Positions 2,305-25,432 of a DNA stretch of 40,047 nucleotides are shown piece after piece. The notes under the pieces were generated by a model. That model did no database searches, had not been told where the DNA came from, and worked only from the letters and a program-made list of their open reading frames with translations. Location of the stretch: positions 1 to 40,047 of the forward strand of contig DASRTO010000580.1 of assembly GCA_035655915.1 (NCBI GenBank). The letters run 5' to 3'. Source of the DNA: Anaeromyxobacteraceae bacterium (GTDB lineage Bacteria; Myxococcota; Myxococcia; Myxococcales; Anaeromyxobacteraceae). The stretch's first letter is position 1, and each line of letters starts with the position of its first letter. Both the position numbers and the translations under genes were made by a program.

Positions 2305-2340
2305 CGCCGTCCTCCTCGATCGCGCCGGCCGGGCGAGAGC

Positions 2341-6803: not shown

Positions 6804-6893
6804 AGGGCTTGCCGGGGCACCCGGGTCCCCCGGGGCGCGAGGAGGGCAAGGGGCGGGAAGGGCCGCTCGAGCCCTGCCCCGCGGCACCTGGCC

Positions 6894-6944: not shown

Positions 6945-7040
6945 GGGAAGGCCATCCCAGGACGGGGCCGAGGGCGAGGTGCACCGCGGGAGCGCGGTGC
7001 TTATGCTGGAGACGAGGATCGAGGCGGCGCGAGGGCCATC

Positions 7041-7253
7041 ATGAGCCTGCTGGAGCGCATCGGGTACAGGCTGGCGGCGGCGGCGCTGGCCGAGGAAGGC
7101 GAGGTCGACGCCGCCCGGGCCATCGAGGCGGAGGTCGAGGACGACGAGGCCGGCCCGCGGGAGGGTCGTACCGGTCCTCCGGCGAGCCCGGCTGGTGGCA
7201 GCGCCGCCAGGGGCGGATCGGGCCCCGCCCCTACCCCCCGCCGGAGGCGGTGA
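7041..7253 (+). CDS. Mini-protein (70 aa) carrying the recurrent AAxxAEEGE module
   Basis: An ATG with GAGGG lies upstream. The N-terminus MSLLERIGYRLAAAALAEEGEVDAARAIEAE parallels the mini-ORF at 9413..9228 residue for residue. The last 23 nt overlap the convergent sulP 3' end. The track ORF start at 6912 was rejected. Confidence 0.55.
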   Translation: MSLLERIGYRLAAAALAEEGEVDAARAIEAEVEDDEAGPREGRTGPPASPAGGSAARGGSGPAPTPRRRR

Positions 7254-9198
7254 GCGCCGGGAGCGCCGGCTTCACCGGGAGACCGTCCGGCTTCTCCCGA
7301 GGCTGGCCAGGCGCCTCTTCGGCAGGGGCCTCCCCCATGATCTCCCTCGCCGACTCCATCTCGCCCTCCTCGGCGAAGGCCGCCGCGGCCATGGCGGCCG
7401 CGAGCCCGGGCCGGAGCGGCCGGCGCTCCTCAACCGCCGGCGCCAGGGCCCGGCAGCGCGCGAATACCTGCTTCCGGCAGGCCCGGCACACGGACTTGTC
7501 GAGCCGGGCGTCGATGGTCTCGATAGCGCGGTCGAGGTCGTCGAAGATGTTCCCCTCGCCGATCTCCTCGAGGTAGCCGCCCCGGCGCAGCACCTCCAGG
7601 GTGCGCCGCTTGACGCCGACGAGGTACAACCCTCCCCCCATGCGGCGGCGGCGCCGCGCCTCCTGCACCAGCATCTCGGCGCCGGCGACGTCGACGAAGT
7701 TGATGCTGTGAGCCACCACCAGCACGTGCTTCTGCTGCCGGTCGTCGGAGTCGCCGGCGTGCAGGACCTGCTGCACGTGGCTCACCGCCCCGAAGAACAG
7801 GGAGCCGTGGACCTCGACGATCTTGAGCTGGGCGCACTCCGGCTGCTCCGCCTCGCCGGGGAAGGGTCGGGGCGCCTGGTCTTGGGCTGGGACCATGGAG
7901 GCCACCAGCGGGCGGGAGGTGCGAGAGAGGTAGAAGCCCAGCGACAGGATCACCCCCACGTAGATGGCGAACTCCAGGTCCAGGAAGAGGGTGGAGAGGA
8001 AGGTGGCCGCCAGGATGACGGTCTCCGAGCGGCTGGCCCGAGCGATGGCGCGGATGTGGTGGAAGTCGATGAGCCCCCAGGCCACCAAGAAGAGGATCCC
8101 CGCCATGGCGGCGACCGGGAGGTAGGCGGCCAGGGGCGCCACGAGGATCAGGACCGCCGCCAGGAAGAGGGCCGCGAACACCGCCGCCAGCGGGGTCCTG
8201 GCCCCGGCCTCGTAGTTGAGTCCGCTGCGGTTGAAGGAGCCGCTGGAGGCGTAGCTGGAGAAGAAGCTCCCAACCATGTTGGAGAGCCCCTGGCCGATGA
8301 ACTCCTGGTTGCCGTCGATGCGCTGCTCCGAGCGCACCGCGATGGCGCGGGCGATGGACACCGCCTCGGTGAGGGCCAGCATGGTGATGGCGAAGGCGTT
8401 CCCGCCGAGCTGCTTCACCACCTCGGCCGAGAGCATCGGATGCGACAGCGGCGGCAGGGAGCGGGGGAGCGCCCCCACGGTGCGGATGCCGGTGACGGCC
8501 GGCCCGAAGATCCGATCCAGCACCACGCCGGCCAGGCTCCCCACCAGCATGGCCGCGATCATGTAGGGAAAGCGGCGGGCGTAGCGACGGACCAGGATGC
8601 CGGTGAGCAGCGTGATGGCGCCCACCGCGGTGACGTAGGGGCTCGCCTCCCCGGCCTGCGCCACCATGCCGCGCAGGATCTGGGCGAAGGAGGCGCCCCG
8701 GGGGATGGCGACGCCGAAGAAGTTCTTGAGCTGGCTGGCGGCGATGAGGATGGCGGCGCCGGCCGTGAAGCCGATGACCACCGTGTGGGAGATGAAGTTG
8801 ACGAGCGTCCCGAGCCGACCCAGCCCCATGGCCAGCTGCATGGCCCCCACCAGGAACGTCAGCGTGAGCGCCAGCGAGACGTAGTGGGCGCTCCCGGGCT
8901 CGGCCAGCGGGCTGATGGCGGCGAAGACCACGATGGAGATGGCGGTGGTGGGCCCCGAGACCAGGTGCCAGGAGGAGCCGAACAGCGCCGCCACCACCGC
9001 CGGCACCATGGCGGTGTACAGGCCGTACTCGGGCGGCAGGCCGGCGATGGTGGCGAAGGCCACCCCCTGCGGCAGCACGACGAGGGACCCGGTCAGCCCG
9101 GCGAGCAGGTCCGCGCGCAGCGAGGCGCCGTCGACCCTGGACCGCCAGCCCAGGAACGGGAGGGCGCCCCGCAGCCACGGGAAGCGCCGGTCGAGCAT
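7231..9198 (-). CDS. SulP-family anion transporter with a STAS domain and a C-terminal Cys-rich + AAAAFAEEGE tail
   Basis: 655 aa. The N-terminus ..LLAGLTGSLVVLPQGVAFATIAGLPPEYGLY.. is typical SulP. A STAS-like region follows (..IVEVHGSLFFGAVSHV..LYLVGVKRRTLEVLRRGG..). It is followed by CRACRKQVFARC and MAAAAFAEEGEMESAREIM (7336-7392). Confidence 0.9.
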   Translation of the reverse strand: MLDRRFPWLRGALPFLGWRSRVDGASLRADLLAGLTGSLVVLPQGVAFATIAGLPPEYGLYTAMVPAVVAALFGSSWHLVSGPTTAISIVVFAAISPLAEPGSAHYVSLALTLTFLVGAMQLAMGLGRLGTLVNFISHTVVIGFTAGAAILIAASQLKNFFGVAIPRGASFAQILRGMVAQAGEASPYVTAVGAITLLTGILVRRYARRFPYMIAAMLVGSLAGVVLDRIFGPAVTGIRTVGALPRSLPPLSHPMLSAEVVKQLGGNAFAITMLALTEAVSIARAIAVRSEQRIDGNQEFIGQGLSNMVGSFFSSYASSGSFNRSGLNYEAGARTPLAAVFAALFLAAVLILVAPLAAYLPVAAMAGILFLVAWGLIDFHHIRAIARASRSETVILAATFLSTLFLDLEFAIYVGVILSLGFYLSRTSRPLVASMVPAQDQAPRPFPGEAEQPECAQLKIVEVHGSLFFGAVSHVQQVLHAGDSDDRQQKHVLVVAHSINFVDVAGAEMLVQEARRRRRMGGGLYLVGVKRRTLEVLRRGGYLEEIGEGNIFDDLDRAIETIDARLDKSVCRACRKQVFARCRALAPAVEERRPLRPGLAAAMAAAAFAEEGEMESAREIMGEAPAEEAPGQPREKPDGLPVKPALPALTASGGG

Positions 9199-9227
9199 GG
9201 CGAGGCGAGCGCCCAGGAGACCGCCCC

Positions 9228-9413
9228 CTAGGCCCTAGAGGCCTTGGCGTGGGTGGGGACCAGGCGGGGCGGCCGGCGCATCGGCTTCTGCTCGTCGCCG
9301 GGCGCGTCCGCGTCGGTCTCCGCCAGCATCTCCCTCGCGGTCTCGACCTCGCCCTCCTCGGCGAACGCCGCGGCGGCCATGAGCGTCCCGATCTTCTCCC
9401 AAAGCTTCTTCAC
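9228..9413 (-). CDS. Mini-protein (61 aa) carrying the recurrent AAAAFAEEGE module
   Basis: A GTG at 9413 is preceded by GGGAGGG at 5-nt spacing. The product begins VKKLWEKIGTLMAAAAFAEEGEVETAREMLAE.., and the ORF ends 29 nt upstream of sulP. The longer 9228..9710 version was rejected because of its Arg/Pro-rich N-terminus. Confidence 0.6.
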   Translation of the reverse strand: MKKLWEKIGTLMAAAAFAEEGEVETAREMLAETDADAPGDEQKPMRRPPRLVPTHAKASRA

Positions 9414-9515
9414 GACCGCCCTCCCTGCTCGCGCCCACTGAAACGAGCTGGACACCCGCTGCGGCCCGGGCCCGGCGCGGCCGTCCTGGTTCCGGGTTCC
9501 ATGACCCGACGTCGT

Positions 9516-9531
9516 AGCAGGCCGCATGCCA
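9516..9531 (-). promoter_or_regulatory. Sigma-54-type promoter candidate TGGCATG-N4-CTGCT
   Basis: The minus-strand reading is TGGCATGCGGCCTGCT, with exact GG-N10-GC spacing. It lies about 100 nt upstream of the GTG at 9413 (mini-ORF + sulP). Confidence 0.55.
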
Positions 9532-9767
9532 CTGCCTTCCCGTGCCGTTCCGGGCGATTTTCCGGCCCCAGGCGGTGGCCGGGCGTGAAGGAGCGATGCG
9601 CGATGCAACAGCTCCCTCGGCCGGCGGCGGCCGCGCCCTCGCCTGAGGCCCTGGAAATGCCGTGGCGGAGCGTAAGACGTCCGGCTGAACCGGATAGTTG
9701 CAGTCTGCAACAGGCAGCGCCACGGGACGGCCCGGAAACCAGGCGGCTTTCGGACGGCCCGCCTCGT

Positions 9768-10265
9768 CTAGCGGTCGTCGAGGGTGAAGATGGGGACGCT
9801 CACGCCGGCGAAGCGGGTCCTGGGCGCGAGATCGGGCTCGATGAGCAGGAAGGCGATCCGCCGGAAGCGGCGCCTGGCCTCGGCGACGGCCCGCTCCGGG
9901 TCGCCGCTCCGGACGGCGTGGACGAAGGGAATGCCCCGCTCGGCCGCCCGGGCGCCGAACACCTCGCCCGGGAGCCAGTCGCCGCGCTCCCGCTCGCCTC
10001 CCAGCCTCGCCACCAGCCTCCTCACGGCCGTGGGCACGCTCAGGGCGACGAGGCCGAAGCGCAGCCGCTCGGCCATGCCCAGCGAATCCTCGACCATCCT
10101 CGGGGAGAAGCCGGAGGCCGCGCTCACGGCCAGGATCCGCTCCCTCCGCTCCGCCGCGTCGTCGGGAAACACCTCGGCGGCGATGCGCTTCGCCTGGTCC
10201 GTCTCCCCGGCTTCGGCGAAGGTCACCGCCTCCCAGAGGTCGTCGAACCTGTTCTTCCGCGACAT
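9768..10265 (-). CDS. Hypothetical protein with an N-terminal TFAEAGE module and a possible USP-like/Rossmann-like body
   Basis: 165 aa. The N-terminus is MSRKNRFDDLWEAVTFAEAGETDQAKRIAAE. The rest (..ILAVSAASGFS..VALSVP..GDPERAV..) is only weakly reminiscent of universal stress proteins. Confidence 0.6.
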   Translation of the reverse strand: MSRKNRFDDLWEAVTFAEAGETDQAKRIAAEVFPDDAAERRERILAVSAASGFSPRMVEDSLGMAERLRFGLVALSVPTAVRRLVARLGGERERGDWLPGEVFGARAAERGIPFVHAVRSGDPERAVAEARRRFRRIAFLLIEPDLAPRTRFAGVSVPIFTLDDR

Positions 10266-10319
10266 CCCTTCCGAGCCTCCTGGCCGGCACCGTGAACCGA
10301 GCCGTCCCGACCGTGGAGT

Positions 10320-10336
10320 AGCAAGAACGGGACCAG
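10320..10336 (-). promoter_or_regulatory. Sigma-54-type promoter candidate CTGGTCC-N5-TTGCT
   Basis: The minus-strand reading is CTGGTCCCGTTCTTGCT, with exact GG-N10-GC spacing and a perfect -12 TTGCT. It lies 55 nt upstream of the ATG at 10265. Confidence 0.55.
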
Positions 10337-10478
10337 TGCGGACACCCGCTCGAGTCCCAGACCTCGCGCATCAGGCCTCGGGCAGGGGCAGGCTACAGGC
10401 CTCGGACCTCGGGCTTCAGGAACAACCTGCCAGGGGCGCTTCTCGCGAGGCCTGATGCCAGATGTCTGAAGCCTGCCG

Positions 10479-11858
<1,380 letters not shown>

Positions 11859-11861
11859 GGC

Positions 11862-13370
11862 TCAGGCGCTCCCCTCCTGCGCCGTCCCGGCGCCCGGGGC
11901 GGCCGCGCCCGGCCGAAGGCGCGGCAGCGTGATGTGGAAGGTGGTGCCCTGGCCGGGCGCGCTCTCCACCCGGATGGTCCCCCCGTGCTGCTCCACGATG
12001 TGGTGGGTCAGGTACAGGCCCAGGCCGGTCCCCTCCCCCACGTCCTTGGTGGTGAAGAAGGGGTCGAAGATCCGGTCCAGGAGCGGGGCGGGGATGCCCG
12101 CGCCGGTGTCCCGGAACACCATCTCCACCCGGTCCCCGGCCGGCCGCGCCGAGATGGCGATCCGGCTCTCCCGGCCGGGGTCGCGCATGGCGTCGACGGA
12201 GTTGGTGACCAGGTTGATGAGGGCCTGCTCCAGCCGGGTCTTGTCCGCCGGGACCTCCAGGTCGGAGGGGACGTCCACCTCCACCGAGACGTGCGGCGGC
12301 ACCTCGCCGCGGCAGAGGATGAGCGAGCCGCGCACCGCCGAGAGGAGGTTGGTGGAACGGCGCTGGCCGTTCTCGCGGCTGAAGTCCAGGACGGTGCGGA
12401 TGATGTCTGTGGCCCGGTCGGTCTGGGAGACGATCTGGTCGATGAGCTCGCGACGCTCCCGCGGATCGGCCCGCTCGTTCTCCTCCTTGAGGATCTCGGC
12501 GGAGGTGGAGACGTTGGAGAGCGGGTTGTTGATCTCGTGGGCGATGCCCGCCAGCATGGTCCCCAGCGAGGCCAGCCGCTCCGACTGGATGGCGTCCTGC
12601 CGGTGCTCGAAGATCTCCCGGATCATCCGGTTGAAGGCCCGATTCATGGAGGAGATCTCGGCGGCGACCTTCCCCTCTGGGAGTAGCTGGTAGCCGCCGG
12701 AGGCGATCCGCTGCATCTGGGCCTCCAGCTCCCGGAGCGGGCGGATGGCGGTGGCGTGGACCAGGCGCGCCACGATGGCCGTCCCCACCAGGAAGACCAC
12801 CACCAGCACCACCAGGGCGCGCCGACCCGAGCGGAGCATCCCCTGGACGTTCCGGCCCTCCACCAGGGCCTGCCGCTCGGCGATCCCGGTGATGCGGCGG
12901 CCCAAGTCCCGGATGTCGGCCTCGAGCCCCGGCGCCGCCCGCGACCGGTCGCCGGCGGGACCGGCGCCGGCCTCGCGGAGGAGGGCGGCGTACCGCCCGA
13001 GGAGCGCCGTGGTTCGCTCCGGGGTGACCTGGTCCGGCCCGCCCTGGTCGGCGGAGGCGAAGAACCGAAGCCAGCGCGGCTGCCGCGAGGCCCCGGCCCG
13101 GGCCGTCGCCAGGGCGCTCGCCGACTCGGCGTACTTGATCGCCGCCTCCAGGTCGTCGCGCTGGCCGTAGAGAAGGTAGTTCTTCTCGTAGCGCCGCATC
13201 TCCAGCGCCATGTCGAGGAAGCGCGAGACCCCGAAGTAGGACTCCACCTCCTCCTCGGCCACGCTCAGGCTCACGAACAGGAGCGAGGCCACCGCCAGGA
13301 GGACGAGGAAGCTCAGGGCGTAGCCGGTCGCGATCTTGCCGCGGATGCTGGTCATCCTGGGGAGCATCAC
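11862..13370 (-). CDS. Sensor histidine kinase (2 TM, HAMP, HisKA, HATPase_c)
   Basis: H-box LAGIAHEINNPL. The N, G1 and G2 boxes are LINLVTNSVDA, DTGAGI and GTGLGL. Its stop lies 3 nt from the downstream EBP start. Confidence 0.9.
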   Translation of the reverse strand: MMLPRMTSIRGKIATGYALSFLVLLAVASLLFVSLSVAEEEVESYFGVSRFLDMALEMRRYEKNYLLYGQRDDLEAAIKYAESASALATARAGASRQPRWLRFFASADQGGPDQVTPERTTALLGRYAALLREAGAGPAGDRSRAAPGLEADIRDLGRRITGIAERQALVEGRNVQGMLRSGRRALVVLVVVFLVGTAIVARLVHATAIRPLRELEAQMQRIASGGYQLLPEGKVAAEISSMNRAFNRMIREIFEHRQDAIQSERLASLGTMLAGIAHEINNPLSNVSTSAEILKEENERADPRERRELIDQIVSQTDRATDIIRTVLDFSRENGQRRSTNLLSAVRGSLILCRGEVPPHVSVEVDVPSDLEVPADKTRLEQALINLVTNSVDAMRDPGRESRIAISARPAGDRVEMVFRDTGAGIPAPLLDRIFDPFFTTKDVGEGTGLGLYLTHHIVEQHGGTIRVESAPGQGTTFHITLPRLRPGAAAPGAGTAQEGSA

Positions 13371-13455
13371 TTGCTGGGGAGCATCGACCTGCCCTCGCCG
13401 GTTCGCCTGTTGCCGGGTGCAGCGGTGATTCTACGCGAAGGCAGTTGCATTTCGC

Positions 13456-13471
13456 AGCAGGCCTGGTGCCC
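13456..13471 (-). promoter_or_regulatory. Sigma-54-type promoter candidate GGGCACC-N4-CTGCT
   Basis: The minus-strand reading is GGGCACCAGGCCTGCT, with exact GG-N10-GC spacing and the same -12 (GGCCTGCT) as the 9516 element. It lies about 85 nt upstream of the kinase start at 13370. Confidence 0.5.
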
Positions 13472-13492
13472 CCGGGGAAGCCCGGCGGCGCA

Positions 13493-13882
13493 TCAGGCCC
13501 GGCCGGCGCGCCCGCCGCTGGCCGCCGCGCTTCGGATCTTCTCCACCAGCTCGCCGATGTCCACCGGCTTGACGAGATAGTCGAAGAGCCCGCGCTGCAT
13601 GCCCTCGACGGCGGCGCCGGCCGACCCGTGGCCCGTGATCAGGATGGCCTCGAACGGCGGCGCCTCCTGCTTGAGCAGGGTCAGCGTGGCCAGCCCGTCG
13701 ATCCCCGGCATCTTGAGGTCGAGGAGGATCACCTGGGGCGCGAACCCGGCGCGGATCCGTTCCACGGCCTCGTCGGCCCCGCTCGCGGCCTGGGCGTCGA
13801 AGCCCCGCAACTGGAGCCGCTCCGCCAGCGCGGCGGCGAAGTCGACCTCGTCGTCCACGATGAGCACCCGCACCTTACCCAC
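13493..13882 (-). CDS. Stand-alone response-regulator receiver protein
   Basis: 129 aa with canonical receiver residues: VLIVDDE, ILLDLKMPGIDG, AILITGHG and DYLVKPV. Confidence 0.9.
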   Translation of the reverse strand: MGKVRVLIVDDEVDFAAALAERLQLRGFDAQAASGADEAVERIRAGFAPQVILLDLKMPGIDGLATLTLLKQEAPPFEAILITGHGSAGAAVEGMQRGLFDYLVKPVDIGELVEKIRSAAASGGRAGRA

Positions 13883-15605
13883 TCTGGCCGCTCCCCGCCT
13901 CGCCCGGTGGCAGCGGGAAGGTGACCGTGAAGACCGTCCCGCTTCCGGCCTCCGCGCCTGACACGCTGATCTCGCCTCCCAGCTTCTTCACCAGGCCGTA
14001 GGTGATGGACAGGCCCAGGCCGGCGCCGTGGCGCTCGGTCCCCTTCTTGGTGGTGAAGAAGGGCTCGAAGATCTTCTGCCGGATCTCCGCCGGGATGCCG
14101 TGGCCGTCGTCCCGGACGTCGATGCGGACCGAGTGATCCGCCCGGCGCGACGCGATCTGGATCAGGCCTCCCCGGTCCACGGCGTCGATGGCGTTGTTCA
14201 CGATGTTGAGGAAGATCTGCTGCAGCTGTCCGGTGTCGCTCTCGATGGGCGGGAGGCCGGCGTCGAGCGCCTGCTCGATGCGGATGCCGCGGAACATGGC
14301 CTCCCGGTCGAGGAATCCGACCACCTCGCGGATCACGTCGTTCACCTGGACCTGCTGGAGCCGGACGTCCATGCGCCGGGCGAACCCGAGCAGCCGGTGG
14401 GTGATGACCCGGGCTCGACCCACCGCGGCCTCGAGGTCGCCCAGCTCCCGGGCGAACTTCTCGCGGTGGGGCATCTCCTGGGAGAGGTCGACGAGGTCCT
14501 TCATCAGCCCCGCCTTCTCCTTGATGACCGCCAGGGGGTTGTTGATCTCGTGGGCCACGCCGGCGGCCAGGCGGCCGATGGAGGCGAGCTTGCCGGTGTG
14601 CTCCGACTCCTTGATCAGGGATTCCCGCGCCTCCTCCGCCTCGCGGATCCGGTTGGCCAGCGGCTTGGCCATGCCCACCACCAGCAGGCCGACCGCCAGC
14701 GCCGTCACCAGCGACACCGCCAGGAGTTGGGTCCGGAAGGCGGACCAGAGCCGGCTCTCGCCCCGCTCCAGCACCAGGATCCACGGCGTGCCCTGGACGT
14801 GGCTGGTCGACCGCAGGACCGCCTCGCCGCCGCGCATGACGCGGGCCACGTCGGTCCCGCGCTTTCCCGGCAGCGAGGGGAGCGCGAACCCGGAGGAGGC
14901 CCTCCCGTAGTAGCGCGAGGAGCTCTGGAGGACGCCGTCGTCGCTGACGAGGAAGATGTCGTCGAGCAGGTCCGAGCTGATGGTCTTGAGGTAGTGGTCC
15001 AGGGTCTCGGCATCGACGCTGGCGCGGACCACCCACGTCCCCTGCGCCGTGCCCTTGCTGGCGGCGATGACGAAGTGCGGGACGTTCCGGAAGCCCATGA
15101 AGACCTCGCTCAAGTGCACCTTGCGGACCAGCGTCTTGTTGAACCAGGGGCTGGCGCTGTAGTCCTTGCCGGCGAGGCGGTAGGGTCCGGCGTAGGCGAT
15201 CTGGATGCCCTCCGGGTCCACCAGGCTCAGGTCGACGAACGACCGGTGCTCCTCCTTGAGCCGGGAGAGGATCCGGGCCAGCCGCTCCTGGTCCGACAGC
15301 TCGGCCACCGTGTAGCCGGCCGAGGTCTCCACCACGCCGTGCCTGAGGCTGTCGAGGTACATCTCCAGGGAGTGAAGCGCCCGCTCGCCATGCCAGCGCA
15401 GGTGGTTCATCTCCTCCTGGTTCACCAGGCTCCGGAACTGGAAGTACCCGAAGCTGGCGGCCACCCCCAGCGGGACCAGGGCCACGCAGACCATGATGAG
15501 GAGCAGGCTCCGGCTGAGGACCGGCCGGCGCCAGTCCACGCCGGAGGCGCCCTTCCTCCCGCTCCGGGATGGGGATCCATCGCTCCTGGGCGTCCCTGGG
15601 CTCAT
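13875..15605 (-). CDS. Sensor histidine kinase with a periplasmic Cache-like domain
   Basis: The start is taken at the ATG at 15605 (MSPGTPR..), which overlaps the upstream stop as ATGA. The product has two TM segments, a Cache-like region (..PWFNKTL..HLSEVFMGFRNVPHFVIAA..), the H-box AAGVAHEINNPL and an HATPase (GAGLGL). Its 3' end overlaps the receiver gene by 8 nt. Confidence 0.85.
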   Translation of the reverse strand: MSPGTPRSDGSPSRSGRKGASGVDWRRPVLSRSLLLIMVCVALVPLGVAASFGYFQFRSLVNQEEMNHLRWHGERALHSLEMYLDSLRHGVVETSAGYTVAELSDQERLARILSRLKEEHRSFVDLSLVDPEGIQIAYAGPYRLAGKDYSASPWFNKTLVRKVHLSEVFMGFRNVPHFVIAASKGTAQGTWVVRASVDAETLDHYLKTISSDLLDDIFLVSDDGVLQSSSRYYGRASSGFALPSLPGKRGTDVARVMRGGEAVLRSTSHVQGTPWILVLERGESRLWSAFRTQLLAVSLVTALAVGLLVVGMAKPLANRIREAEEARESLIKESEHTGKLASIGRLAAGVAHEINNPLAVIKEKAGLMKDLVDLSQEMPHREKFARELGDLEAAVGRARVITHRLLGFARRMDVRLQQVQVNDVIREVVGFLDREAMFRGIRIEQALDAGLPPIESDTGQLQQIFLNIVNNAIDAVDRGGLIQIASRRADHSVRIDVRDDGHGIPAEIRQKIFEPFFTTKKGTERHGAGLGLSITYGLVKKLGGEISVSGAEAGSGTVFTVTFPLPPGEAGSGQSG

Positions 15606-15958
15606 GGCGTCCGGCCGGCGACGCTCCACGGGCCCGGGACGACCTCGCCCGCGCGCAGCTCGCTGGAGAGGAGCAGCCGCAGAGCACCCTCCCAGTTTCC
15701 GATGACCCTGTCCACCACCTGGACCTTCTTCCAGGTCAGGTACTGGTAGTGGACGTCCTCGATCCCGCCGCACACCACGTGGGTGATGCGCTCGGAGAGG
15801 ACCAGGCGACAGATCTCCTCCGCCGATGGGCCGGGCAGCAGCACCACCCGGGGCTCGGCGGTGAGCCGCCCCTTCCGGGCGCGGGCGATGAGCACCTCCC
15901 TGGCGAGATCGAAGCGAGGCGCCACCGTCTCCCCGAGCAGGGGGACGAGGAGGTTCAG
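15602..15958 (-). CDS. Small NifB/NifX-like (dinitrogenase Fe-Mo cofactor family fold) protein, start uncertain
   Basis: This is the C-terminal part of the 15602..17284 frame: LNLLVPLLGETVAPRFDLAREVLIA..THVVCGGIEDVHYQYLTWKKVQVVDRVIG.., which matches the PF02579-type pattern. There is no ATG; candidate starts are CTG 15958 or GTG 15925. Confidence 0.5.
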   Translation of the reverse strand: MNLLVPLLGETVAPRFDLAREVLIARARKGRLTAEPRVVLLPGPSAEEICRLVLSERITHVVCGGIEDVHYQYLTWKKVQVVDRVIGNWEGALRLLLSSELRAGEVVPGPWSVAGRTP

Positions 15959-15972
15959 GCTCCTCGAGCCGC

Positions 15973-17367
15973 TCAGGCCATCCCGTGCCGTCTCATCTTT
16001 CGCCACAGGGTGCTCCGTCCCCAGCCGAGCTTCCTCGCCGCCTCGCCGCGGTGTCCGCGGCACTCGACCAGCGCCTCCATGATCATCCTTCTCTCCACCT
16101 CGCTCCAGGTCGCCTTGCCCGGGAGGCCGCCCAGGCCCCCCCGCGCTCCGTCCAGGCCGCCTGCGCTGGAGCCGGCGCTCGCCGGCGGCTCGACGGGCTC
16201 CGGCGCCGCCCCCCGCAGGACGTAGTCGGGAAGATCCCCGGGCCGGACCAGCTCCTGGCGGCAGACGGTGGCCGCGTGCTCCACGATGTTCCGAAGCTCG
16301 CGCACGTTTCCCGGGTAGGCGTAGCGCTCGAGGACCGCCAGGGCCTGCGGCGACAGGCCCTTCACGGCCTTGCCGAGCCCCCTGGCGAATCGCTCCAGGA
16401 AGTGGTCGGTCAGGAGGCGGACGTCCCCTTCCCGTTCTCGCAGCGGGGGCAGGTGGATGCCGAGGACGTTCAGGCGAAAGTAGAGGTCCTGCCTGAAGCG
16501 TTCGCGGGCCACCAGCTCCTTGAGGTCCCGGTGCGTGCCGGCGATGACCCTCACGTCCACCTCGACCTGCCTCGAGCTGCCGAGCGGGTAGAAAGCCCGG
16601 TCGTCGAGCGCGGTGAGGAGCTTGCCTTGGAGCGGAAGGGGCAGGTCGCCGATCTCGGTAAGGAAGATGGTGCCTCCCTGGGCCAGCCGGAACATGCCGG
16701 GCTTGTCCGCGTGCGCGCCGGTGAAGGCCCCTCGGGAATGCCCGAAGAGCTCGGACTCGAGGAGGCTCTCGGGCAACGCGCCGCAGTTCACCTTCACGAA
16801 CGGGGACTTGGCTCTCCGCGATGCTCGATGGACGGCCTCGGCCAGGAGGTCCTTGCCCGTGCCGGTCTCCCCGGTGATGAGGAGCGTGGCGTCGGTGTTG
16901 GCCACCACCGGCACGAACTCGAGGACCTCCTGCATCCGCGGGCTGCTGGCCACGAGGTCGGGAAGCGAGCGCGGCCCCTGCGCCAGGGCGTCCAGCTTCT
17001 GGATGACCGAGACGTCCTCCACGAAGAGGAGGATCGCCGCCGGGCTCGGGCCCGGCCCCTTGAGCGGGGCGGCGGTGATCCGCACCGGCACGCGCCTCCG
17101 GTCGGCGCTCACCACGTCCGACTCCATCGAGACCGGCGCCCCGGTGCGGATGGGCTCGCCGAAGGGAGACCGCTCGTGACTCGATCGGTTCCGGATGACG
17201 TGGCCGCCCGGGACGCCCGCCACGTCCTCGGAGGCGTGGCCCGTCAGGGCTTCCAGGCGGCTGTTCATGGCCAGCAGCCGGCACTCGCCGTCGAGGAGGG
17301 CCGCGCCGTGGGGCAGCCCGTTCAGGATCTCGAGCGACTCGCGAGCCACGCTTTCAAAACGTTTCAT
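15973..17367 (-). CDS. Sigma-54 enhancer-binding protein with an N-terminal PAS sensor (no receiver domain)
   Basis: The start is taken at ATG 17367, with GGAG 5 nt upstream. The PAS-like N-terminus is ..LNGLPHGAALLDGECRLLAMNSRLEALTG... The AAA+ domain has GETGTGKD and RGAFTGA. The HTH is RGEAARKLGWGRSTLWRKMRRHG. Confidence 0.9.
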   Translation of the reverse strand: MKRFESVARESLEILNGLPHGAALLDGECRLLAMNSRLEALTGHASEDVAGVPGGHVIRNRSSHERSPFGEPIRTGAPVSMESDVVSADRRRVPVRITAAPLKGPGPSPAAILLFVEDVSVIQKLDALAQGPRSLPDLVASSPRMQEVLEFVPVVANTDATLLITGETGTGKDLLAEAVHRASRRAKSPFVKVNCGALPESLLESELFGHSRGAFTGAHADKPGMFRLAQGGTIFLTEIGDLPLPLQGKLLTALDDRAFYPLGSSRQVEVDVRVIAGTHRDLKELVARERFRQDLYFRLNVLGIHLPPLREREGDVRLLTDHFLERFARGLGKAVKGLSPQALAVLERYAYPGNVRELRNIVEHAATVCRQELVRPGDLPDYVLRGAAPEPVEPPASAGSSAGGLDGARGGLGGLPGKATWSEVERRMIMEALVECRGHRGEAARKLGWGRSTLWRKMRRHGMA

Positions 17368-17537
17368 TGAGTCTCCACTATCCAGATCCCCCGCTCCCGC
17401 GTCAAGCGCCGCCACTGCTCCAGCTCCATCCCACCGAAAGAAGGCCAGCTCACGCTGGCCGAGCATGGCCCGAGCCTGGTCCGGCTGGCGTAGCACCCGC
17501 CAGCTCGGAAGCGGCTGAGCTGAGCCGCGTAGCACAC

Positions 17538-17556
17538 GAATCAATCATTTTGATTC
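17538..17556. promoter_or_regulatory. Perfect 7-bp inverted repeat GAATCAA-N5-TTGATTC in an AT-rich island (candidate operator/UAS)
   Basis: Read directly in the sequence. It lies in the divergent region between the EBP gene (17367, minus) and the plus-strand operon starting at 17716, about 80 nt upstream of the sigma-54-like element. Confidence 0.4.
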
Positions 17557-17630
17557 ATTGCGTCTCGGCCGAGTCTAGCTAGCCCGGTCGCGATCTGCTC
17601 AACCTGCCGGAATCCCAAGGGCCGCGCCAC

Positions 17631-17647
17631 CTGGCACGGAGCGCGCT
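17631..17647 (+). promoter_or_regulatory. Sigma-54-type promoter candidate CTGGCACGG-N3-GCGCT
   Basis: It has a perfect -24 TGGCACG, exact GG-N10-GC spacing and a weak -12. It lies 69 nt upstream of the ATG at 17716. Confidence 0.5.
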
Positions 17648-17715
17648 TTGGCGGGGGCGAGCAGGAACCGGCGTCGGGGGGACGTGGACACCGGGCCGCG
17701 GAGGGAGGGACCTCG

Positions 17716-17973
17716 ATGGCGGGCACCCATGCCGGGGAGACGAGGGTGAGTCGAGCGCACCGACGCCGCCGGGGATCGTGGCTGGCGTGGGTCGAACGGC
17801 AGCTCCTGGCGGCGGCATTCGCCGAGGAGGGGCTGCACCGGGAGGCCCGACGACTCAGCGGCGGCGACGGGGCGTCCGGGGGCGACGAGGCGCTCCAGCT
17901 GCTCCTGGGGGCGCACGGAGTCCGGATGTTCTGCGGCTCCCTCTCGCCGGCGGCCCTGGCGGCGCGGCGCTGA
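17716..17973 (+). CDS. Mini-protein (85 aa) carrying the AAAFAEEG module
   Basis: A strong RBS (GGAGGGAGGGA) lies 5 nt upstream. The module ..SWLAWVERQLLAAAFAEEGLHREARRL.. is encoded at 17803-17856. This is the first gene of an 8-gene plus-strand operon. Confidence 0.55.
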   Translation: MAGTHAGETRVSRAHRRRRGSWLAWVERQLLAAAFAEEGLHREARRLSGGDGASGGDEALQLLLGAHGVRMFCGSLSPAALAARR

Positions 17974-17986
17974 GCCCGCGAAGGCC

Positions 17987-18517
17987 ATGCCATCCAGGGT
18001 CCACATCGTGTCGCCGGACGTCGCGTTCGCCGGGTCGATCGGGAGCCGGCTCGCGAGCTGGGGCCTGTCGGTCGCATGCGAGAGCGACTTCGGGAGGGTG
18101 ACGCCGTCCCTGGTCCAGCAGGAGCAGGTGGACGTCATCCTCCTCGACGTGCGACGGCCCGAGGGGGGGATCCTCCGATGGCTCTCCGCCTTGAAGGGAG
18201 CGCTCCCCTCGCTCGAGGTCATCCTCCTCGGCATGGCCGGGGAGATCGGCGTCTCGATCGAGGGCATGAAGGCGGGGGCGTCCTACGAGCTGTCGGTCCC
18301 GTTCGACACTGCGGCCCTGCGGAACGCCGTCTCGTCCGCCCTGCGCCGCCGCAACAAGAGGCTTCCAGCCGCCAGGCCATCCCTGCGGGAGATGTTCGAG
18401 CGAGCCATGACCGCGGCCACCTTCGCGCAGGCCGGCGAGTTCGAGACGGCGCGCCAGATCCTCGAGGAAGGCGGGGCCGGGCCAGGTCGACCCGGCCCGA
18501 AGGCGGGCCCGCAGTAG
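17987..18517 (+). CDS. Degenerate (pseudo-)receiver domain protein with a C-terminal TFAQAGE module
   Basis: It has a receiver-like fold (HIVSPD.., ILLDVRRPEGG, EVILLGMAG, YELSVPF). The conserved Thr/Ser and Lys positions read G and S. The tail MTAATFAQAGEFETARQIL is encoded at 18407-18463. Confidence 0.7.
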   Translation: MPSRVHIVSPDVAFAGSIGSRLASWGLSVACESDFGRVTPSLVQQEQVDVILLDVRRPEGGILRWLSALKGALPSLEVILLGMAGEIGVSIEGMKAGASYELSVPFDTAALRNAVSSALRRRNKRLPAARPSLREMFERAMTAATFAQAGEFETARQILEEGGAGPGRPGPKAGPQ

Positions 18518-18553
18518 GGCCCGGTGCAGCGTTCCACCAGCGAAGGAGGGGTC

Positions 18554-18997
18554 ATGGACGACATCCGGATACTGCTCGTCGACGACGAGGAGGAGTTCGT
18601 GCAGGCGCTGTCCGAGCGGCTCGGTCTCCGGGACCTCTCGAGCCAGACCGCCTTCGACGGCGAGGAGGCCTTGAGGTTCGTGGACGCCAACGCCCCCCAC
18701 ATCATGGTGCTCGACCTCAAGATGCCCGGGACCAGCGGCCTGGACGTGCTCCGCCTGGTGAAGAAGCAGCACCCCGCCCTCCAGGTCATCGTCCTCACCG
18801 GCCACGGCAACGACCTCGACGAGGCCGAGGCCCGGTCGATCGGGATCTTCGACTACCTGCGCAAGCCGGTCGACATCGAGGTCCTGGTGGGTCGCATCCG
18901 CGCCGCCTACCAGGAAGGCCGGAAGGGCACCTCCCTCACCGCTGCGGCCTTCGCCGAGGCCGGCGAGCTCGACACCGCCAGGCGCATCCTCGAATGA
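18554..18997 (+). CDS. Response-regulator receiver protein with a C-terminal AAAFAEAGE module
   Basis: ATG 18554 follows GAAGGAGGGG. The REC domain is canonical (ILLVDDEEE, VLDLKMPGTSG, VIVLTGHG, DYLRKPV). The tail LTAAAFAEAGELDTARRILE is encoded at 18935-18994. Confidence 0.85.
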   Translation: MDDIRILLVDDEEEFVQALSERLGLRDLSSQTAFDGEEALRFVDANAPHIMVLDLKMPGTSGLDVLRLVKKQHPALQVIVLTGHGNDLDEAEARSIGIFDYLRKPVDIEVLVGRIRAAYQEGRKGTSLTAAAFAEAGELDTARRILE

Positions 18998-19043: not shown

Positions 19044-20774
19044 ATGAGAGTCCACACCGCGACCATCCCGGCCGAGGCGCTGCGCATCCAGCCGCGCGAG
19101 GCCTACTACGCACGGCAGAAGCGCCTCTTCGCGCTGGCGTTCATCCTGGTGTCACTGGTCCCGCTGGCGCTCCTGAACTACGAGGCCTCCCGCTTCTACC
19201 AGGCCTCCTGGATGGAGAAGACCACCCTGGAGCTGGCGGGGATGGCGGCCAGCCGGCGGGAGCTCATCGACCTCTTCCTCCGGACCCAGGAGGCCCAGCT
19301 GGCGAGCCTGGTGGAGACGCACACCCAGGCCGAGCTGACCCGCGAGCCCAGGCTGCAGGATCTGTTCCGGGCGGTGAGCCGGAACGGCGTCATCACCGAC
19401 CTGGGGGTCATCGACCGCGAGGGTCGCCACCTCGCCTACGCCGGGCCCTTCCAGCGGGAGCTGGCGGGCCGGAACTACGCCGGCGCCGAGTGGTTCGCCG
19501 AGGTCATGAGGACCGGCCGCTACGTGAGCGACGTGTTCCCCGGCTACCGGAACGTGCCCCACATCATCGTGGCCGTGACCGACGCCCGCAAGGACTGGAT
19601 CCTGCGGGCCACCATCGATTCCGGGCTGTTCAACGGCCTGGTGGCCAGCGCCAACGTGGGCCCCGGGGGCGACGCCTACATCATCGACCTGCAGGGGCGG
19701 CTCCAGACGCCGAGCCGCCATGGCCACCAGCGCATCCCCCCGGAGGAGGTCCGGCCCATCGCCCGCCTGGCGGACGGCGGCCGGATGTCCGACGCCATCG
19801 GCGGAAGCCTGTTCGCCGCCGCCCGGCTGAACGGCGGCACGTGGCTGCTGGTCCTCGAGACCAACGTCGACTCCTCGCTGGCCGCCTATCACCGGGCGCG
19901 GCAGCGGAACGGCCTCATCATCCTGGCGGCGGCGGTGGCCATCGTCCTGGTGGCCGTGCTGCTCACGCGCTCCATGGTGGATCGCCTCGCCCGGGCGGAC
20001 GGCCAGCGGGCGGCCCTCTCCGAGCGGGTGCGGCACGTCGAGAAGATGGCCCTGGTGGGACGGCTGGCGGCCAGCGTGGCCCACGAGATCAACAACCCGC
20101 TCCAGAACATCTCGGAGCACGCCGGCCTGGTGGACGAGATCCTCCGCGGCGGGGCGCCCGCGGGCGGGGCCGACCTGGAGGAGTGCCACCGGTCGCTCCA
20201 GAAGATCCGCGACCAGGTGACGCGGGCCTCGGCCATCACCCACCGCCTGCTGGGCTTCTCGCGCGCCCCGGATCGCCCGCGCGAGCCAGCCGACTTGAAC
20301 CGGGCCGTGGAGGACACCATCGCCCTCCTGGAGGGTGAGGCCAGGCGCCACCGGATCGCCATCGCCCGAGATTTCCAGTCGGACCTGGCGCCGGTCGGGA
20401 CCGACCCCGGCCAGCTCCAGCAGGTGGTCCTGAACGTCCTCGGCAACGCCATGGACGCCATCGGCTCCGGCGGGGAGATCCGGGTCGCCACCCGCGCCGA
20501 CGGGCCCTGGCTGCGCATCGACGTCCTGGACAGCGGGCCCGGCCTCCCGGCGGAGGCCCTGGCGCGCATGTTCGATCCCTTCTTCACCACCAAGCGAAAC
20601 GGGAAGGGCACCGGCCTCGGGCTCTTCGTGTCCCGCAACATCATGGAGCGGCTGGGAGGCGATCTCACCGCCTCGAACCGCGCCGGGGGCGGTTCGGTCT
20701 TCACCATCCGGCTCCCGGCCCCGGGCCCGCACCATGCCCCCCCTCCTCTCGACGCCCAACCAGGGAGACCCTGA
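19044..20774 (+). CDS. Sensor histidine kinase with a periplasmic Cache-like domain
   Basis: It has two TM segments and a Cache-like region (..AEWFAEVMRTGRYVSDVFPGYRNVPHIIVAV..) paralogous to the 13875..15605 kinase. The H-box is AASVAHEINNPL and the HATPase shows GTGLGL. Confidence 0.9.
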   Translation: MRVHTATIPAEALRIQPREAYYARQKRLFALAFILVSLVPLALLNYEASRFYQASWMEKTTLELAGMAASRRELIDLFLRTQEAQLASLVETHTQAELTREPRLQDLFRAVSRNGVITDLGVIDREGRHLAYAGPFQRELAGRNYAGAEWFAEVMRTGRYVSDVFPGYRNVPHIIVAVTDARKDWILRATIDSGLFNGLVASANVGPGGDAYIIDLQGRLQTPSRHGHQRIPPEEVRPIARLADGGRMSDAIGGSLFAAARLNGGTWLLVLETNVDSSLAAYHRARQRNGLIILAAAVAIVLVAVLLTRSMVDRLARADGQRAALSERVRHVEKMALVGRLAASVAHEINNPLQNISEHAGLVDEILRGGAPAGGADLEECHRSLQKIRDQVTRASAITHRLLGFSRAPDRPREPADLNRAVEDTIALLEGEARRHRIAIARDFQSDLAPVGTDPGQLQQVVLNVLGNAMDAIGSGGEIRVATRADGPWLRIDVLDSGPGLPAEALARMFDPFFTTKRNGKGTGLGLFVSRNIMERLGGDLTASNRAGGGSVFTIRLPAPGPHHAPPPLDAQPGRP

Positions 20775-20776
20775 CC

Positions 20777-25429: not shown

Positions 25430-25432
25430 GAG

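What the first reader, a model, noticed from the sequence alone, without database searches (positions are those of the whole stretch)
7041..18997. Seven copies of a ~20-aa 'AAxFAE(E/A)GExxxAR' peptide module, occurring as mini-ORFs and as terminal tails on unrelated proteins
I read seven instances directly in the translations.
1. 7071-7124 (+): LAAAALAEEGEVDAARAI, in a 70-aa mini-ORF.
2. 7336-7392 (-): MAAAAFAEEGEMESAREIM, the extreme C-terminal tail of the SulP-STAS transporter.
3. 9324-9383 (-): LMAAAAFAEEGEVETAREML, in a 61-aa mini-ORF.
4. 10179-10238 (-): LWEAVTFAEAGETDQAKRIA, the N-terminus of a 165-aa protein.
5. 17803-17856 (+): LLAAAFAEEGLHREARRL, in an 85-aa mini-ORF.
6. 18407-18463 (+): MTAATFAQAGEFETARQIL, the tail of a degenerate receiver.
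7. 18935-18994 (+): LTAAAFAEAGELDTARRILE, the tail of a canonical receiver.

Five copies are preceded by a related amphipathic stretch: LLERIGYRL, LWEKIGTL, LAWVERQL, FDDLWEAV and LREMFERAM. The copies lie on both strands and their codons differ, so the conservation is at the protein level rather than a DNA repeat.

One short module grafted onto a transporter STAS tail, two receiver domains and stand-alone mini-proteins suggests a shared docking or partner-switch peptide tying transport to the local sigma-54/two-component circuitry. I do not recognise it as a named domain.
Basis: seen in the sequence. Interest (0 to 1): 0.85.

Follow-up and report, generated by a model that had tools for sequence, protein, structure and literature searches.

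The report
Uncatalogued helical-hairpin module on transport regulators
The seven peptide copies are real instances of a widespread, unnamed ~30-residue helix-turn-helix module. It occurs as tiny stand-alone proteins and as an add-on to stress-protein-like domains, response regulators and a transporter tail, in sigma-54-controlled sulfur-anion transport gene clusters of three bacterial phyla.

Summary
A core pattern hits exactly 7 times in the six-frame translation of the 40-kb window, against 0.07-0.13 in shuffles.

The motif is the core of a ~30-residue module, h-x3-h-[ED]-x-h-M-x-A-h-T-F-A-E-A-G-E-x-[ED]-x-A-x-[ED]-h-h. I found 222 copies in 80 related loci plus this window (Anaeromyxobacteraceae, Desulfobacterota, Nitrospirota). 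It matches 1,615 protein clusters (50% identity) in a 1.8-billion-protein library.

No Pfam, NCBIfam or PDB entry covers it. There are only sub-threshold TPR and FimV-C-terminal hits, so it is TPR-like but uncatalogued.

Hosts:
- 50-75-aa mini-proteins
- USP-like proteins
- single receiver domains (C-terminal tail kept in 117 of 120 homologues)
- SulP tails (Anaeromyxobacter only)
- a TauE-adjacent protein
- a PPDK-like protein

The mini-ORFs are real genes: dN/dS is 0.22-0.30, and they have ribosome-binding sites and cross-phylum conservation. They typically lie first behind a sigma-54-type promoter; 52 of 101 such sites in 1.05 Mb lie within 300 nt upstream of a module.

My best reading is inferred, not shown. 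The module is a protein-protein docking hairpin that links regulators of DASS/SulP/TauE anion transporters, with the mini-proteins as stand-alone copies.

The parts
7041..7253 (+). mini-ORF 1 (70 aa); module at 7044-7139; acidic then Arg-rich tail; its 3' end overlaps the SulP 3' end convergently
   Evidence: Orthologues in L001, L003, L006. dN/dS 0.30 against L001.
7231..9198 (-). SulP-STAS anion transporter (655 aa) with the module in its C-terminal tail (7327-7416). The module follows a conserved C-x2-C-x7-C stretch and is followed by ~31 residues.
   Evidence: Pfam Sulfate_transp 1e-94 and STAS 8e-11; TIGR00815. The tail module is conserved in L001-L006.
9228..9413 (-). mini-ORF 3 (61 aa, GTG start, GGGAGGG ribosome-binding site); module at 9315-9407; first gene of the mini-SulP operon
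   Evidence: GC by codon position 0.69/0.50/0.97. Orthologues in all six Anaeromyxobacter loci. dN/dS 0.22.
9516..9531 (-). sigma-54-type -24/-12 promoter candidate TGGCATGCGGCCTGCT, ~100 nt upstream of mini-ORF 3
   Evidence: Equivalent sites in L001-L006.
9768..10265 (-). 165-aa protein ('p165'): N-terminal module (10173-10256) plus a USP-like alpha/beta domain lacking the ATP-binding glycine motif
   Evidence: 166 homologues. The module is the most invariant part. AF2 model plus Foldseek best hit TeaD USP 3hgm, E 2e-4. No G-x2-G-x9-G[ST].
10320..10335 (-). weaker sigma-54-type promoter candidate TGGTCCCGTTCTTGCT upstream of p165
   Evidence: read. It resembles the sites upstream of p165 in L003, L005 and L006.
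10479..11858 (-). NtrC-type sigma-54 activator (receiver + AAA+ with GAFTGA + HTH); conserved neighbour
   Evidence: GAFTGA read in the translation. Family present in 64 of 81 loci. Pfam domains of homologues.
11862..13370 (-). sensor histidine kinase; conserved neighbour
17632..17647 (+). sigma-54-type promoter candidate TGGCACGGAGCGCGCT, ~70 nt upstream of mini-ORF 5
17716..17973 (+). mini-ORF 5 (85 aa, GGAGGGAGGG ribosome-binding site); module of the 'AFAEEGLHxEA' subtype at 17776-17856; C-terminal part related to the 'FLxxVGLxxVRxxYG' subfamily
   Evidence: The same order, mini then divergent receiver then receiver, recurs in L073 and L079.
17987..18517 (+). divergent receiver-domain protein (176 aa) with the module as C-terminal tail (18380-18472)
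   Evidence: Pfam Response_reg 5e-9. Module score 51.5 bits. Orthologous architecture in L073 and L079.
18554..18997 (+). canonical single-domain response regulator (147 aa from the ATG at 18554) with the module as C-terminal tail (18932-18991)
   Evidence: Pfam Response_reg 7e-25. 117 of 120 best homologues keep the tail. In the AF2 model, alpha5 continues into the module's first helix.
19044..20774 (+). sensor histidine kinase downstream of the receiver pair; start of an HK-TauE-PPDK-like-receiver block
   Evidence: Resemblance to the Desulfovibrio 'nitrate cluster' (PMC4001038).

Best explanation
The motif is the core of a ~30-residue helix-turn-helix hairpin that resembles a TPR repeat. 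The first helix is long and amphipathic and ends in A-x-T-F-A-E-A. The turn is at G. The second helix is short and begins E-x-[ED]-x-A.

I propose it is a protein-protein docking module. It would bring together the accessory regulators of sigma-54-controlled anion-transport operons (SulP here; DASS/SLC13 and TauE elsewhere). These regulators are USP-like proteins, single-domain response regulators and, in Anaeromyxobacter, the transporter's own STAS tail.

The N-terminal half of the first helix cannot be covered by the short second helix of the same hairpin. A lone copy should therefore need a partner surface, either another hairpin (giving a four-helix bundle) or a partner domain.

The 50-85-aa mini-proteins are stand-alone copies made first from the same sigma-54 promoters. 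I infer they act as competitors or bridges for the module-bearing regulators, so that transporter activity is tuned after induction.

Shown: the module exists, is conserved, is mobile between hosts, comes in sets, and sits in this genomic and promoter context.

Inferred: that it mediates binding, what it binds, and the effect on transport.
For: - Strict position-specific conservation over 199 unique copies: A-3 in 195, F0 in 187, A+1 in 198, E+2 in 185, G+4 in 182, A+9 in 195, with a heptad-like hydrophobic stripe upstream.
- Only weak similarity to protein-interaction hairpins: TPR_4/6/14 and FimV_Cterm.
- Predicted helix-turn-helix in both models. In the receiver, alpha5 runs straight into the module's first helix, so the hairpin projects from the alpha4-beta5-alpha5 signalling face.
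- Mobility between N-terminal, internal and C-terminal positions on USP-like, REC, STAS-tail, TauE-adjacent and PPDK-like hosts, and REC-module-REC proteins.
- Copies come in sets. In 53 of 57 loci, 2 to 4 modules lie within one 2.6-kb same-strand stretch. Many proteins carry 2-4 tandem copies.
- The mini-proteins consist of the module plus a disordered tail. They are constrained and usually lie first behind a sigma-54-type promoter.
- Constant neighbourhood of transporter, USP, histidine kinase and sigma-54 activator, also in loci found through mini-proteins alone.
- Precedent from the best structural match: TeaD, whose PDB title places it with the TeaABC TRAP transporter. From my own knowledge, not checked here, TeaD modulates that transporter's activity.
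Against: - No interaction was tested, and the tools fold single chains only.
- The hairpin in the p165 model has pLDDT below 50 and no confident packing.
- Most invariant residues (F, A, A, G, capping E) can be explained by hairpin folding alone, so they say nothing about a partner.
- The 80 loci were collected through p165, which biases the neighbourhood statistics. Only five loci are independent of it.
- Sigma-54 promoters are pattern matches only.
- The conserved basic tails and C-terminal [LM]RA-type endings of the mini-proteins are not explained by a pure docking role.
Confidence: 0.42

Rival explanations
1. The module is a recognition tag or adaptor-binding element for regulated proteolysis. 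Module-bearing proteins, above all the mini-proteins with their basic tails and conserved C-terminal endings, would be substrates or adaptors of an AAA+ protease. In Desulfobacterota that would be the receiver-Lon fusion encoded divergently next to the operon. Phosphorylation would then gate their turnover.
For: - A Lon protease carrying a receiver domain occurs in 30 loci. In 23 of them it lies within 600 bp of, and divergent from, a module gene.
- Mini-proteins end in basic, disordered tails with recurrent endings such as RPxLRA, LRAPSIRR and PSRA.
Against: - No receiver-Lon gene is in this window or in the Anaeromyxobacter loci fetched.
- A folded, strongly conserved hairpin is unusual for a degron.
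- The module also sits internally in USP domains and between two receivers.
- This rival is compatible with the docking idea rather than exclusive of it.
Confidence: 0.15
2. The hairpin is a structural cap or in-cis regulatory lid for its host domain (USP-like, receiver), with no role in bringing different proteins together. The mini-proteins would then supply the same lid in trans to USP-like proteins.
For: - The commonest hosts are USP-like. 14 of 31 larger multi-module proteins hit Pfam Usp. In about 40 loci the module replaces the alpha2 region inside a USP domain.
- In the receiver model it is simply an extension of alpha5.
Against: - The hosts are structurally unrelated (REC, STAS tail, membrane protein, PPDK-like).
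- In p165 the hairpin is joined by a variable linker and is not confidently packed on the domain.
- Tandem arrays of 2-4 modules exist without any other domain.
Confidence: 0.13
3. The acidic hairpin binds a small ligand or cation, or the Arg-rich tails of the mini-proteins, and so acts as a sensor element rather than a docking element.
For: Conserved acidic positions (E+2, E/D+5, E/D+7, E/D+11, E/D-8) and frequent His at +6 in Desulfobacterota. Some mini-proteins carry a CxxC stretch after the module.
Against: - His+6 and the Cys motifs are not conserved across lineages. The window copies have V/M/T/L/F at +6.
- The acidic residues sit at helix-capping positions.
- No similarity to known metal-binding motifs was found.
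Confidence: 0.08
4. The mini-ORFs are leader peptides (cis-acting upstream ORFs) whose translation controls the downstream transporter genes. Their resemblance to tails on larger proteins would be secondary.
For: They are the first short ORF behind the promoter of long operons.
Against: - Amino-acid-level constraint (dN/dS 0.22-0.30).
- The same 30-residue profile occurs in large proteins and in tandem arrays.
- Own ribosome-binding sites and coding-type GC3.
- Some mini-genes are not upstream of anything, e.g. mini-ORF 1, which is convergent with SulP.
Confidence: 0.04
5. Chance or low-complexity Ala/Glu-rich matches in a 71% G+C genome.
For: High G+C inflates Ala, Gly and Glu in all frames.
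Against: 7 observed against 0.07-0.13 expected. 222 copies in related loci with near-invariant positions. 1,615 clusters at E<=1e-3 in a 1.8-billion-protein library.
Confidence: 0.01

Closest known systems
Tetratricopeptide (TPR) repeats and the FimV/HubP C-terminal TPR-like motif (TIGR03504)
   Same: A helix-turn-helix hairpin of about 30 residues. Small or aromatic packing residues fall where TPR has G/A8, Y11, G15 and A20, with a hydrophobic residue at 24. Recurrent weak hits to TPR_4/6/14 and FimV_Cterm. TPR hairpins are used for protein-protein contacts.
   Different: - All hits are far below curated cut-offs (13-20 bits against 23.5-30.65).
- The second helix is short and lacks A27 and P32.
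- Copies are mostly single, or separated by basic linkers at irregular 30-58-residue spacing, not contiguous 34-residue arrays.
- The F-A-E-A-G-E signature is not a TPR signature.
Transporter-associated universal stress proteins such as TeaD of the TeaABC TRAP transporter (PDB 3hgm)
   Same: p165 and the ~170-aa neighbours have a USP-type alpha/beta fold and are encoded next to a secondary transporter. TeaD is the best structural match (E 2e-4).
   Different: - p165 and its relatives lack the G-x2-G-x9-G[ST] ATP-binding motif.
- Window p165 does not reach the Pfam Usp threshold.
- The hairpin module is an extra element that TeaD lacks.
- TM-scores are only 0.46-0.56.
microProteins (stand-alone interaction domains such as LITTLE ZIPPER or Id proteins of eukaryotes) - a comparison from my own knowledge
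   Same: Very small proteins that consist of little more than a module also found in larger multi-domain regulators encoded nearby.
   Different: No evidence yet that they titrate their larger relatives. They carry an extra conserved basic tail. The setting is bacterial and operon-encoded.
DASS-type sulfate-transporter gene cluster of Desulfobacteraceae (PMC11887813) and the Desulfovibrio 'nitrate cluster' DVU0251-0245 (PMC4001038)
   Same: The same kinds of neighbours: DASS or TauE transporter, several two-component systems, CBS protein, PPDK-like protein, single receiver.
   Different: In the passages I read and searched, those papers describe the transporters and two-component systems, not the hairpin module or the mini-proteins. 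PMC11887813 calls its response regulators WalR type, whereas here they are sigma-54 activators. Identity of the clusters was not tested.
STAS partner-switching modules (SpoIIAA/RsbV type)
   Same: A STAS domain is present on SulP, and a short appended element could mediate regulatory contacts.
   Different: The module lies outside the STAS domain. It occurs mostly in loci whose transporter has no STAS domain. No anti-sigma kinase or phosphatase partner was looked for or seen.

Membership tests
TPR repeat (Pfam TPR_1..TPR_19) | Profile match above the curated gathering score | tested here: not met
   Best hits: TPR_14 at 13-20 bits (cut-off 23.5), TPR_4 at 15.3 (27), TPR_6 at 12-17 (26.3)..
TPR repeat (Pfam TPR_1..TPR_19) | Consensus packing positions (G/A8, Y/F11, A20, hydrophobic 24, A27, P32) | tested here: inconclusive
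   By-eye register on the profile. A at 8, F at 11, G at 15, A at 20 and I/L/M at 23-24 fit. A27 and P32 are absent.
TPR repeat (Pfam TPR_1..TPR_19) | Contiguous tandem arrays of 34-residue units | tested here: not met
   Mostly single copies. Tandem copies are spaced irregularly, at about 30-58 residues in the small proteins and up to about 180 in the larger ones, with basic linkers.
FimV/HubP C-terminal domain (TIGR03504) | Profile match above the curated cut-off (30.65 bits) | tested here: not met
   13.6-14.4 bits for three mini-proteins.
Universal stress protein (PF00582), for p165 | Profile match above the gathering score (24 bits) | tested here: not met
   No hit for window p165 at E<=1. 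A Nitrospirota relative scores 16.5 bits. A relative in L085 is listed as 'Usp (weak)'. The ~170-aa neighbour family does pass (34.3 bits).
Universal stress protein (PF00582), for p165 | USP/HUP-type alpha/beta fold | tested here: met
   AF2 model with pLDDT 67.5. Foldseek top hits are USPs (3hgm at E 2e-4; 4wny, 2gm3, 6hcd) with TM 0.44-0.56. Confidence is moderate.
Universal stress protein (PF00582), for p165 | ATP-binding motif G-x2-G-x9-G[ST] (UspFG class) | tested here: not met
   0 of 20 in A1, 1 of 74 p165 relatives, 0 of 41 USP-with-insert relatives.
Response-regulator receiver domain (PF00072), for the two tail-bearing proteins | Profile match above the gathering score | tested here: met
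   87.8 bits (18524-18997) and 36.7 bits (17987-18517), cut-off 30.2.
SulP/STAS transporter | Sulfate_transp and STAS domains; TIGR00815 | tested here: met
   317.9 and 42 bits; TIGR00815 at 390.9 (cut-off 380.45)..
Sigma-54-dependent operon | -24 GG / -12 GC promoter (TGGCAC-N5-TTGCW) upstream, and an activator with GAFTGA nearby | tested here: met
   Pattern level only. Window sites at 9516-9531(-) and 17632-17647(+), and 10320-10335(-) which is weaker. 52 of 101 sites in 1.05 Mb lie within 300 nt upstream of a module, a zone holding 3% of positions. GAFTGA is present in the 10479-11858 product.
microProtein concept | Small protein made essentially of an interaction module shared with larger regulators | tested here: met
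   Mini-proteins of 45-77 aa are the module plus a tail. The same module is on USP-like, REC and SulP proteins.
microProtein concept | Acts by sequestering or bridging its larger relatives | not testable with these tools
   Needs interaction assays or multimer prediction.
STAS partner-switching module | Cognate anti-sigma kinase or PP2C phosphatase, and a phosphorylatable STAS serine | not tested
   Not examined. The module lies outside the STAS domain, and most loci have a DASS or TauE transporter without STAS.

The most novel reading that the evidence does not exclude
The mini-proteins are bacterial microProteins. They would be stand-alone copies of a docking hairpin, produced first from sigma-54 promoters, that compete with or bridge the hairpin-bearing USP-like proteins, single-domain response regulators and transporter tails. 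They would be cleared by a phosphorylation-gated receiver-Lon protease. Together this would form a previously unrecognised post-translational switch on sulfate, sulfite or thiosulfate uptake in sulfate reducers, Nitrospirota and Anaeromyxobacter.
Probability: 0.2. Interest if true: 0.8.

Novelty: new variant of a known kind. Interest (0 to 1): 0.62.

Why it matters
Sulfate, sulfite and thiosulfate uptake is the entry step of dissimilatory sulfur metabolism. How these transporters are regulated after transcription is largely unknown.

This work defines a widespread, easily recognised and so far unannotated module. It marks a whole set of 'hypothetical' small proteins and accessory regulators around DASS, SulP and TauE transporter genes. 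It ties together USP-like proteins, single-domain response regulators and sigma-54 control.

It gives annotators a new family to name. It gives experimentalists short, specific targets: 30-residue peptides and 60-aa proteins for interaction, uptake and proteolysis assays.

If the stand-alone copies do act on their larger relatives, this would be a clear bacterial case of microProtein-type regulation.

Tried and rejected
- A literature search for the peptide strings FAEAGE, FAEEGE and TFAEAG found one unrelated paper.
- The comparative paper on sulfate transporters (PMC5840216) has nothing on neighbours.
- A first profile search failed because the 32-aa query was under the 40-aa minimum. The 44-aa profile returned mini-proteins almost exclusively, so hosts were classified from the loci and from the representative search instead.
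- A profile search against PDB sequences gave only an insignificant hit to a designed helical repeat.
- The sigma-70 scan found no promoter for mini-ORF 1. The AT-rich TTGAAC-N16-TTATAT island I read by eye does not meet the tool's criteria, so I do not claim it.
- The gene caller I wrote merges or misses genes in the high-G+C loci, for example SulP called at 799-1003 aa. Counts that depend on it are approximate.
- I first filed the ~668-aa neighbour as a sigma-54 activator. Pfam showed it is a receiver-Lon protease.
- I considered that the conserved Thr before Phe might be a phosphosite for the PPDK-like protein. I dropped this because Thr is replaced by Ala in 39 of 199 copies, including most window copies.

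Full report
**Observation**

The window is about 71% G+C. The nearest public relative of its 165-aa protein is from an Anaeromyxobacteraceae MAG (92% identity).

The short pattern [FL]A[EQ][EA]G[EL] occurs exactly seven times in the six-frame translation of the whole 40 kb, and nowhere else. Shuffles give 0.07 (dinucleotide) and 0.13 (residue) hits. The longer pattern is expected 0.01 times. So this is not an Ala/Glu-rich artefact.

The host ORFs are as described. The one correction is that the SulP copy is followed by about 31 more residues.

The three mini-ORFs look like genes:
- GC by codon position is 0.69/0.50/0.97 for the 61-aa ORF. GC3 is 0.86-0.87 for the other two.
- Purine-rich ribosome-binding sites precede the starts.
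- Orthologues exist in other Anaeromyxobacter contigs.
- dN/dS against L001 is 0.22 and 0.30, compared with 0.15 for the 165-aa protein.

**What the motif is**

The 165-aa protein ('p165') has 166 homologues. Its N-terminal DDLxEAxTFAEAGExxxA is its most invariant stretch.

A scan of one genome per species with that family gave 80 loci from Anaeromyxobacter, Nitrospirota and many Desulfobacterota. An HMM built from the motif finds 222 copies of at least 14 bits in these loci plus the window.

Over 199 unique copies the profile is sharp:
- A at -3 (195), F at 0 (187), A at +1 (198), E at +2 (185), G at +4 (182), A at +9 (195).
- Acidic residues at -8, +5, +7 and +11.
- Hydrophobic residues at -13, -9, -6, -5, +12 and +13.

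The unit is therefore about 30 residues: a long amphipathic helix, a turn at G, and a short second helix. Both AlphaFold models predict exactly this.

A profile search of 1.84 billion representative proteins finds 1,615 clusters at E<=1e-3 and 235 at E<=1e-10. Many of these have two to four copies in tandem.

**Is it a known domain?**

Pfam-A and NCBIfam give nothing above threshold, either for the window proteins or for consensus-like copies. The only recurrent hits are sub-threshold TPR_4/6/14 and the FimV/HubP C-terminal motif, at 13-20 bits against cut-offs of 23.5-30.65.

A profile search of all PDB sequences finds nothing significant. Public sources call the mini-proteins 'hypothetical protein'. 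A full-text search for the peptide strings finds nothing relevant.

By eye the module fits TPR positions 2-24 (A at 8, F at 11, G at 15, A at 20) but lacks A27 and P32, and it does not form contiguous arrays. I file it as TPR-like, not as a TPR.

**Hosts**

- (a) p165-type proteins: one to three N-terminal modules plus a USP-like domain. The AF2 model has pLDDT 67.5. The best Foldseek hit is the transporter-associated USP TeaD (3hgm, E 2e-4). The ATP-binding glycine motif is absent.
- (b) Proteins of about 170 aa that pass Pfam Usp and carry the module inside the domain.
- (c) Mini-proteins of 45-85 aa: the module plus a disordered tail. The tail is Arg/Lys/Pro-rich in the commonest subfamily, with recurrent endings RPxLRA, LRAPSIRR or PSRA. 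A second subfamily, to which window mini-ORF 5 belongs, ends in FLxxVGLxxVRxxYG.
- (d) Single-domain response regulators with the module as C-terminal tail. Of the 120 best homologues of the window's canonical receiver, 117 keep it, including proteins from Thermodesulfobacteriota. REC-module-REC proteins also exist.
- (e) SulP C-terminal tails, only in Anaeromyxobacter.
- (f) A ~160-aa protein directly upstream of TauE, a membrane protein, and a PPDK-like protein.

The window's order of mini-ORF 5, divergent receiver with tail, then receiver with tail recurs in two Desulfobacterota loci (L073, L079).

**Context**

The conserved neighbourhood is: sigma-54-type promoter, mini, USP with insert, p165, anion transporter, cytidylate-kinase-like protein, histidine kinase, NtrC-type activator. 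The transporter is DASS/SLC13 with TrkA_C in 49 of 74 cases, otherwise TauE or SulP. TauE, PPDK_N/PEP-utilizers proteins, CBS proteins and YeeE/TusA-like genes lie nearby.

Five loci retrieved through mini-proteins alone show the same company: TauE or DASS, Usp, sigma-54 activator, histidine kinase.

Of 101 matches to TGGCAC-N5-TTGCW (at least 10 of 12 positions) in 1.05 Mb, 52 lie within 300 nt upstream of a module. That zone holds 3% of positions. The window has such sites upstream of mini-ORF 3 and mini-ORF 5, and a weaker one upstream of p165.

In 53 of 57 loci with enough upstream DNA, two to four modules lie within one 2.6-kb stretch.

Published work describes similar clusters without mentioning the module, in the parts I read or searched:
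- A DASS sulfate-transporter cluster with many two-component systems and CBS proteins in Desulfobacteraceae (PMC11887813).
- The Desulfovibrio 'nitrate cluster' (TauE, kinase, receiver, PPDK-like), proposed to be a leaky thiosulfate transporter (PMC4001038).

**Mechanism**

What is shown is anatomy, conservation, mobility, clustering and promoter context. What follows is inference.

The short second helix cannot bury the hydrophobic stripe of the N-terminal half of the first helix. A lone hairpin should therefore need a partner surface. Copies come in sets on different proteins of one operon. In the receiver the hairpin is a direct extension of alpha5, on the face that changes on phosphorylation.

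I therefore favour a docking module that assembles USP-like regulators, single-domain receivers and (here) the SulP tail, with the mini-proteins as stand-alone competitors or bridges. My confidence is about 0.4.

A proteolysis-tag role is a serious partial rival. In Desulfobacterota a Lon protease carrying a receiver domain is encoded divergently beside the operon in 23 loci, and the mini-proteins have degron-like tails. That protease is absent from the window.

Other rivals are less likely:
- an in-cis lid for USP domains
- an acidic ligand-binding hairpin
- a leader-peptide role

Chance is excluded.

**Verdict**

The link between the module, transport and sigma-54/two-component signalling is real. 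The docking function is untested, and a STAS partner switch is not indicated.
- The module is an uncatalogued, TPR-like hairpin family with an unusual deployment as mini-proteins plus add-ons. I rate it a new variant of a known kind, of moderate to high interest.

**Limits**

- Locus sampling is biased by p165.
- My gene calls in high-G+C loci are crude.
- Promoters are pattern matches.
- Model confidence for the p165 hairpin is low.
- No multimer prediction or experiment was possible.

Noticed in passing
L081 9220-11226 (-); L085 5705-7723 (-); about 30 of the loci L001-L080 (e.g. L063 6849-8852): A ~668-aa Lon protease with a receiver domain placed before its AAA+ module (Pfam Response_reg + AAA + Lon_lid + Lon_C). 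In 23 loci it is encoded divergently within 600 bp of a module gene. It is absent from the window.
   Followed up: partly
window 19044-25810: A block of histidine kinase, TauE-like permease, 851-aa PPDK_N/PEP-utilizers protein and single receiver. It resembles the Desulfovibrio 'nitrate cluster' (DVU0251-0245), whose mutants resist nitrate and which was proposed to be a leaky thiosulfate transporter (PMC4001038). A second PPDK-like gene ends at 6803.
   Followed up: partly
window 7417-7470 (-), and the SulP tails of L001, L002, L004, L005 and L006: A conserved C-x2-C-x7-C stretch (CRACRKQVFARC here) lies between the STAS domain and the module in the Anaeromyxobacter SulP tails. A few mini-proteins (P0148, P0174) carry CPHCG after the module.
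   Followed up: no
window 7231-7253: Mini-ORF 1 (+) and SulP (-) are convergent, and their 3' ends overlap by about 22 nt.
   Followed up: no
window 6895-6935: An AT-rich island in a 73% G+C region (…TTGACTTGAACCTGGATGATTCAGTTGTTATATGGCAT…) lies upstream of mini-ORF 1. It reads as TTGAAC-N16-TTATAT, but the sigma-70 scan does not accept it.
   Followed up: partly
window 7327-7386 (-) versus 9315-9374 (-): At nucleotide level the seven copies range from 54% to 83% identity. By eye the closest pair is the SulP-tail copy and the adjacent mini-ORF 3 copy, which hints at recent duplication or gene conversion between neighbours.
   Followed up: no
window 25862-29405, and L001/L003/L005: TauE with a 141-160-aa membrane protein, plus a YeeE/YedE-like permease, are encoded nearby in the window. 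L001 and L003 pair that permease with an 83-84-aa TusA-like protein carrying a CPxP motif. I identified these by eye from the sequences, not by a profile search. The whole window looks like a sulfur-oxyanion transport island.
   Followed up: no
mini-proteins P0122-P0196; L033 9452-9865; L071 9171-9368: The basic tails of the mini-proteins end in recurrent short motifs (RPxLRA, [LM]RAPS[IM]RR, PSRA/PARS). This is a second conserved element that no explanation here accounts for.
   Followed up: partly
L081 5539-6018, L082 5051-5575, L083 491-994, L084 8206-8685: A ~160-170-aa protein family with no Pfam hit: an N-terminal module plus an unknown domain, always directly upstream of a 427-444-aa TauE, a ~240-aa protein and a 285-aa tandem USP.
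   Followed up: no
window 2295-6803 (+), 4388-7576 (+), 7195-9231 (+) and others: Very long ORFs in shadow frames (up to 1,502 aa) are artefacts of the high G+C content. Frame choice needs GC3 or homology.
   Followed up: yes
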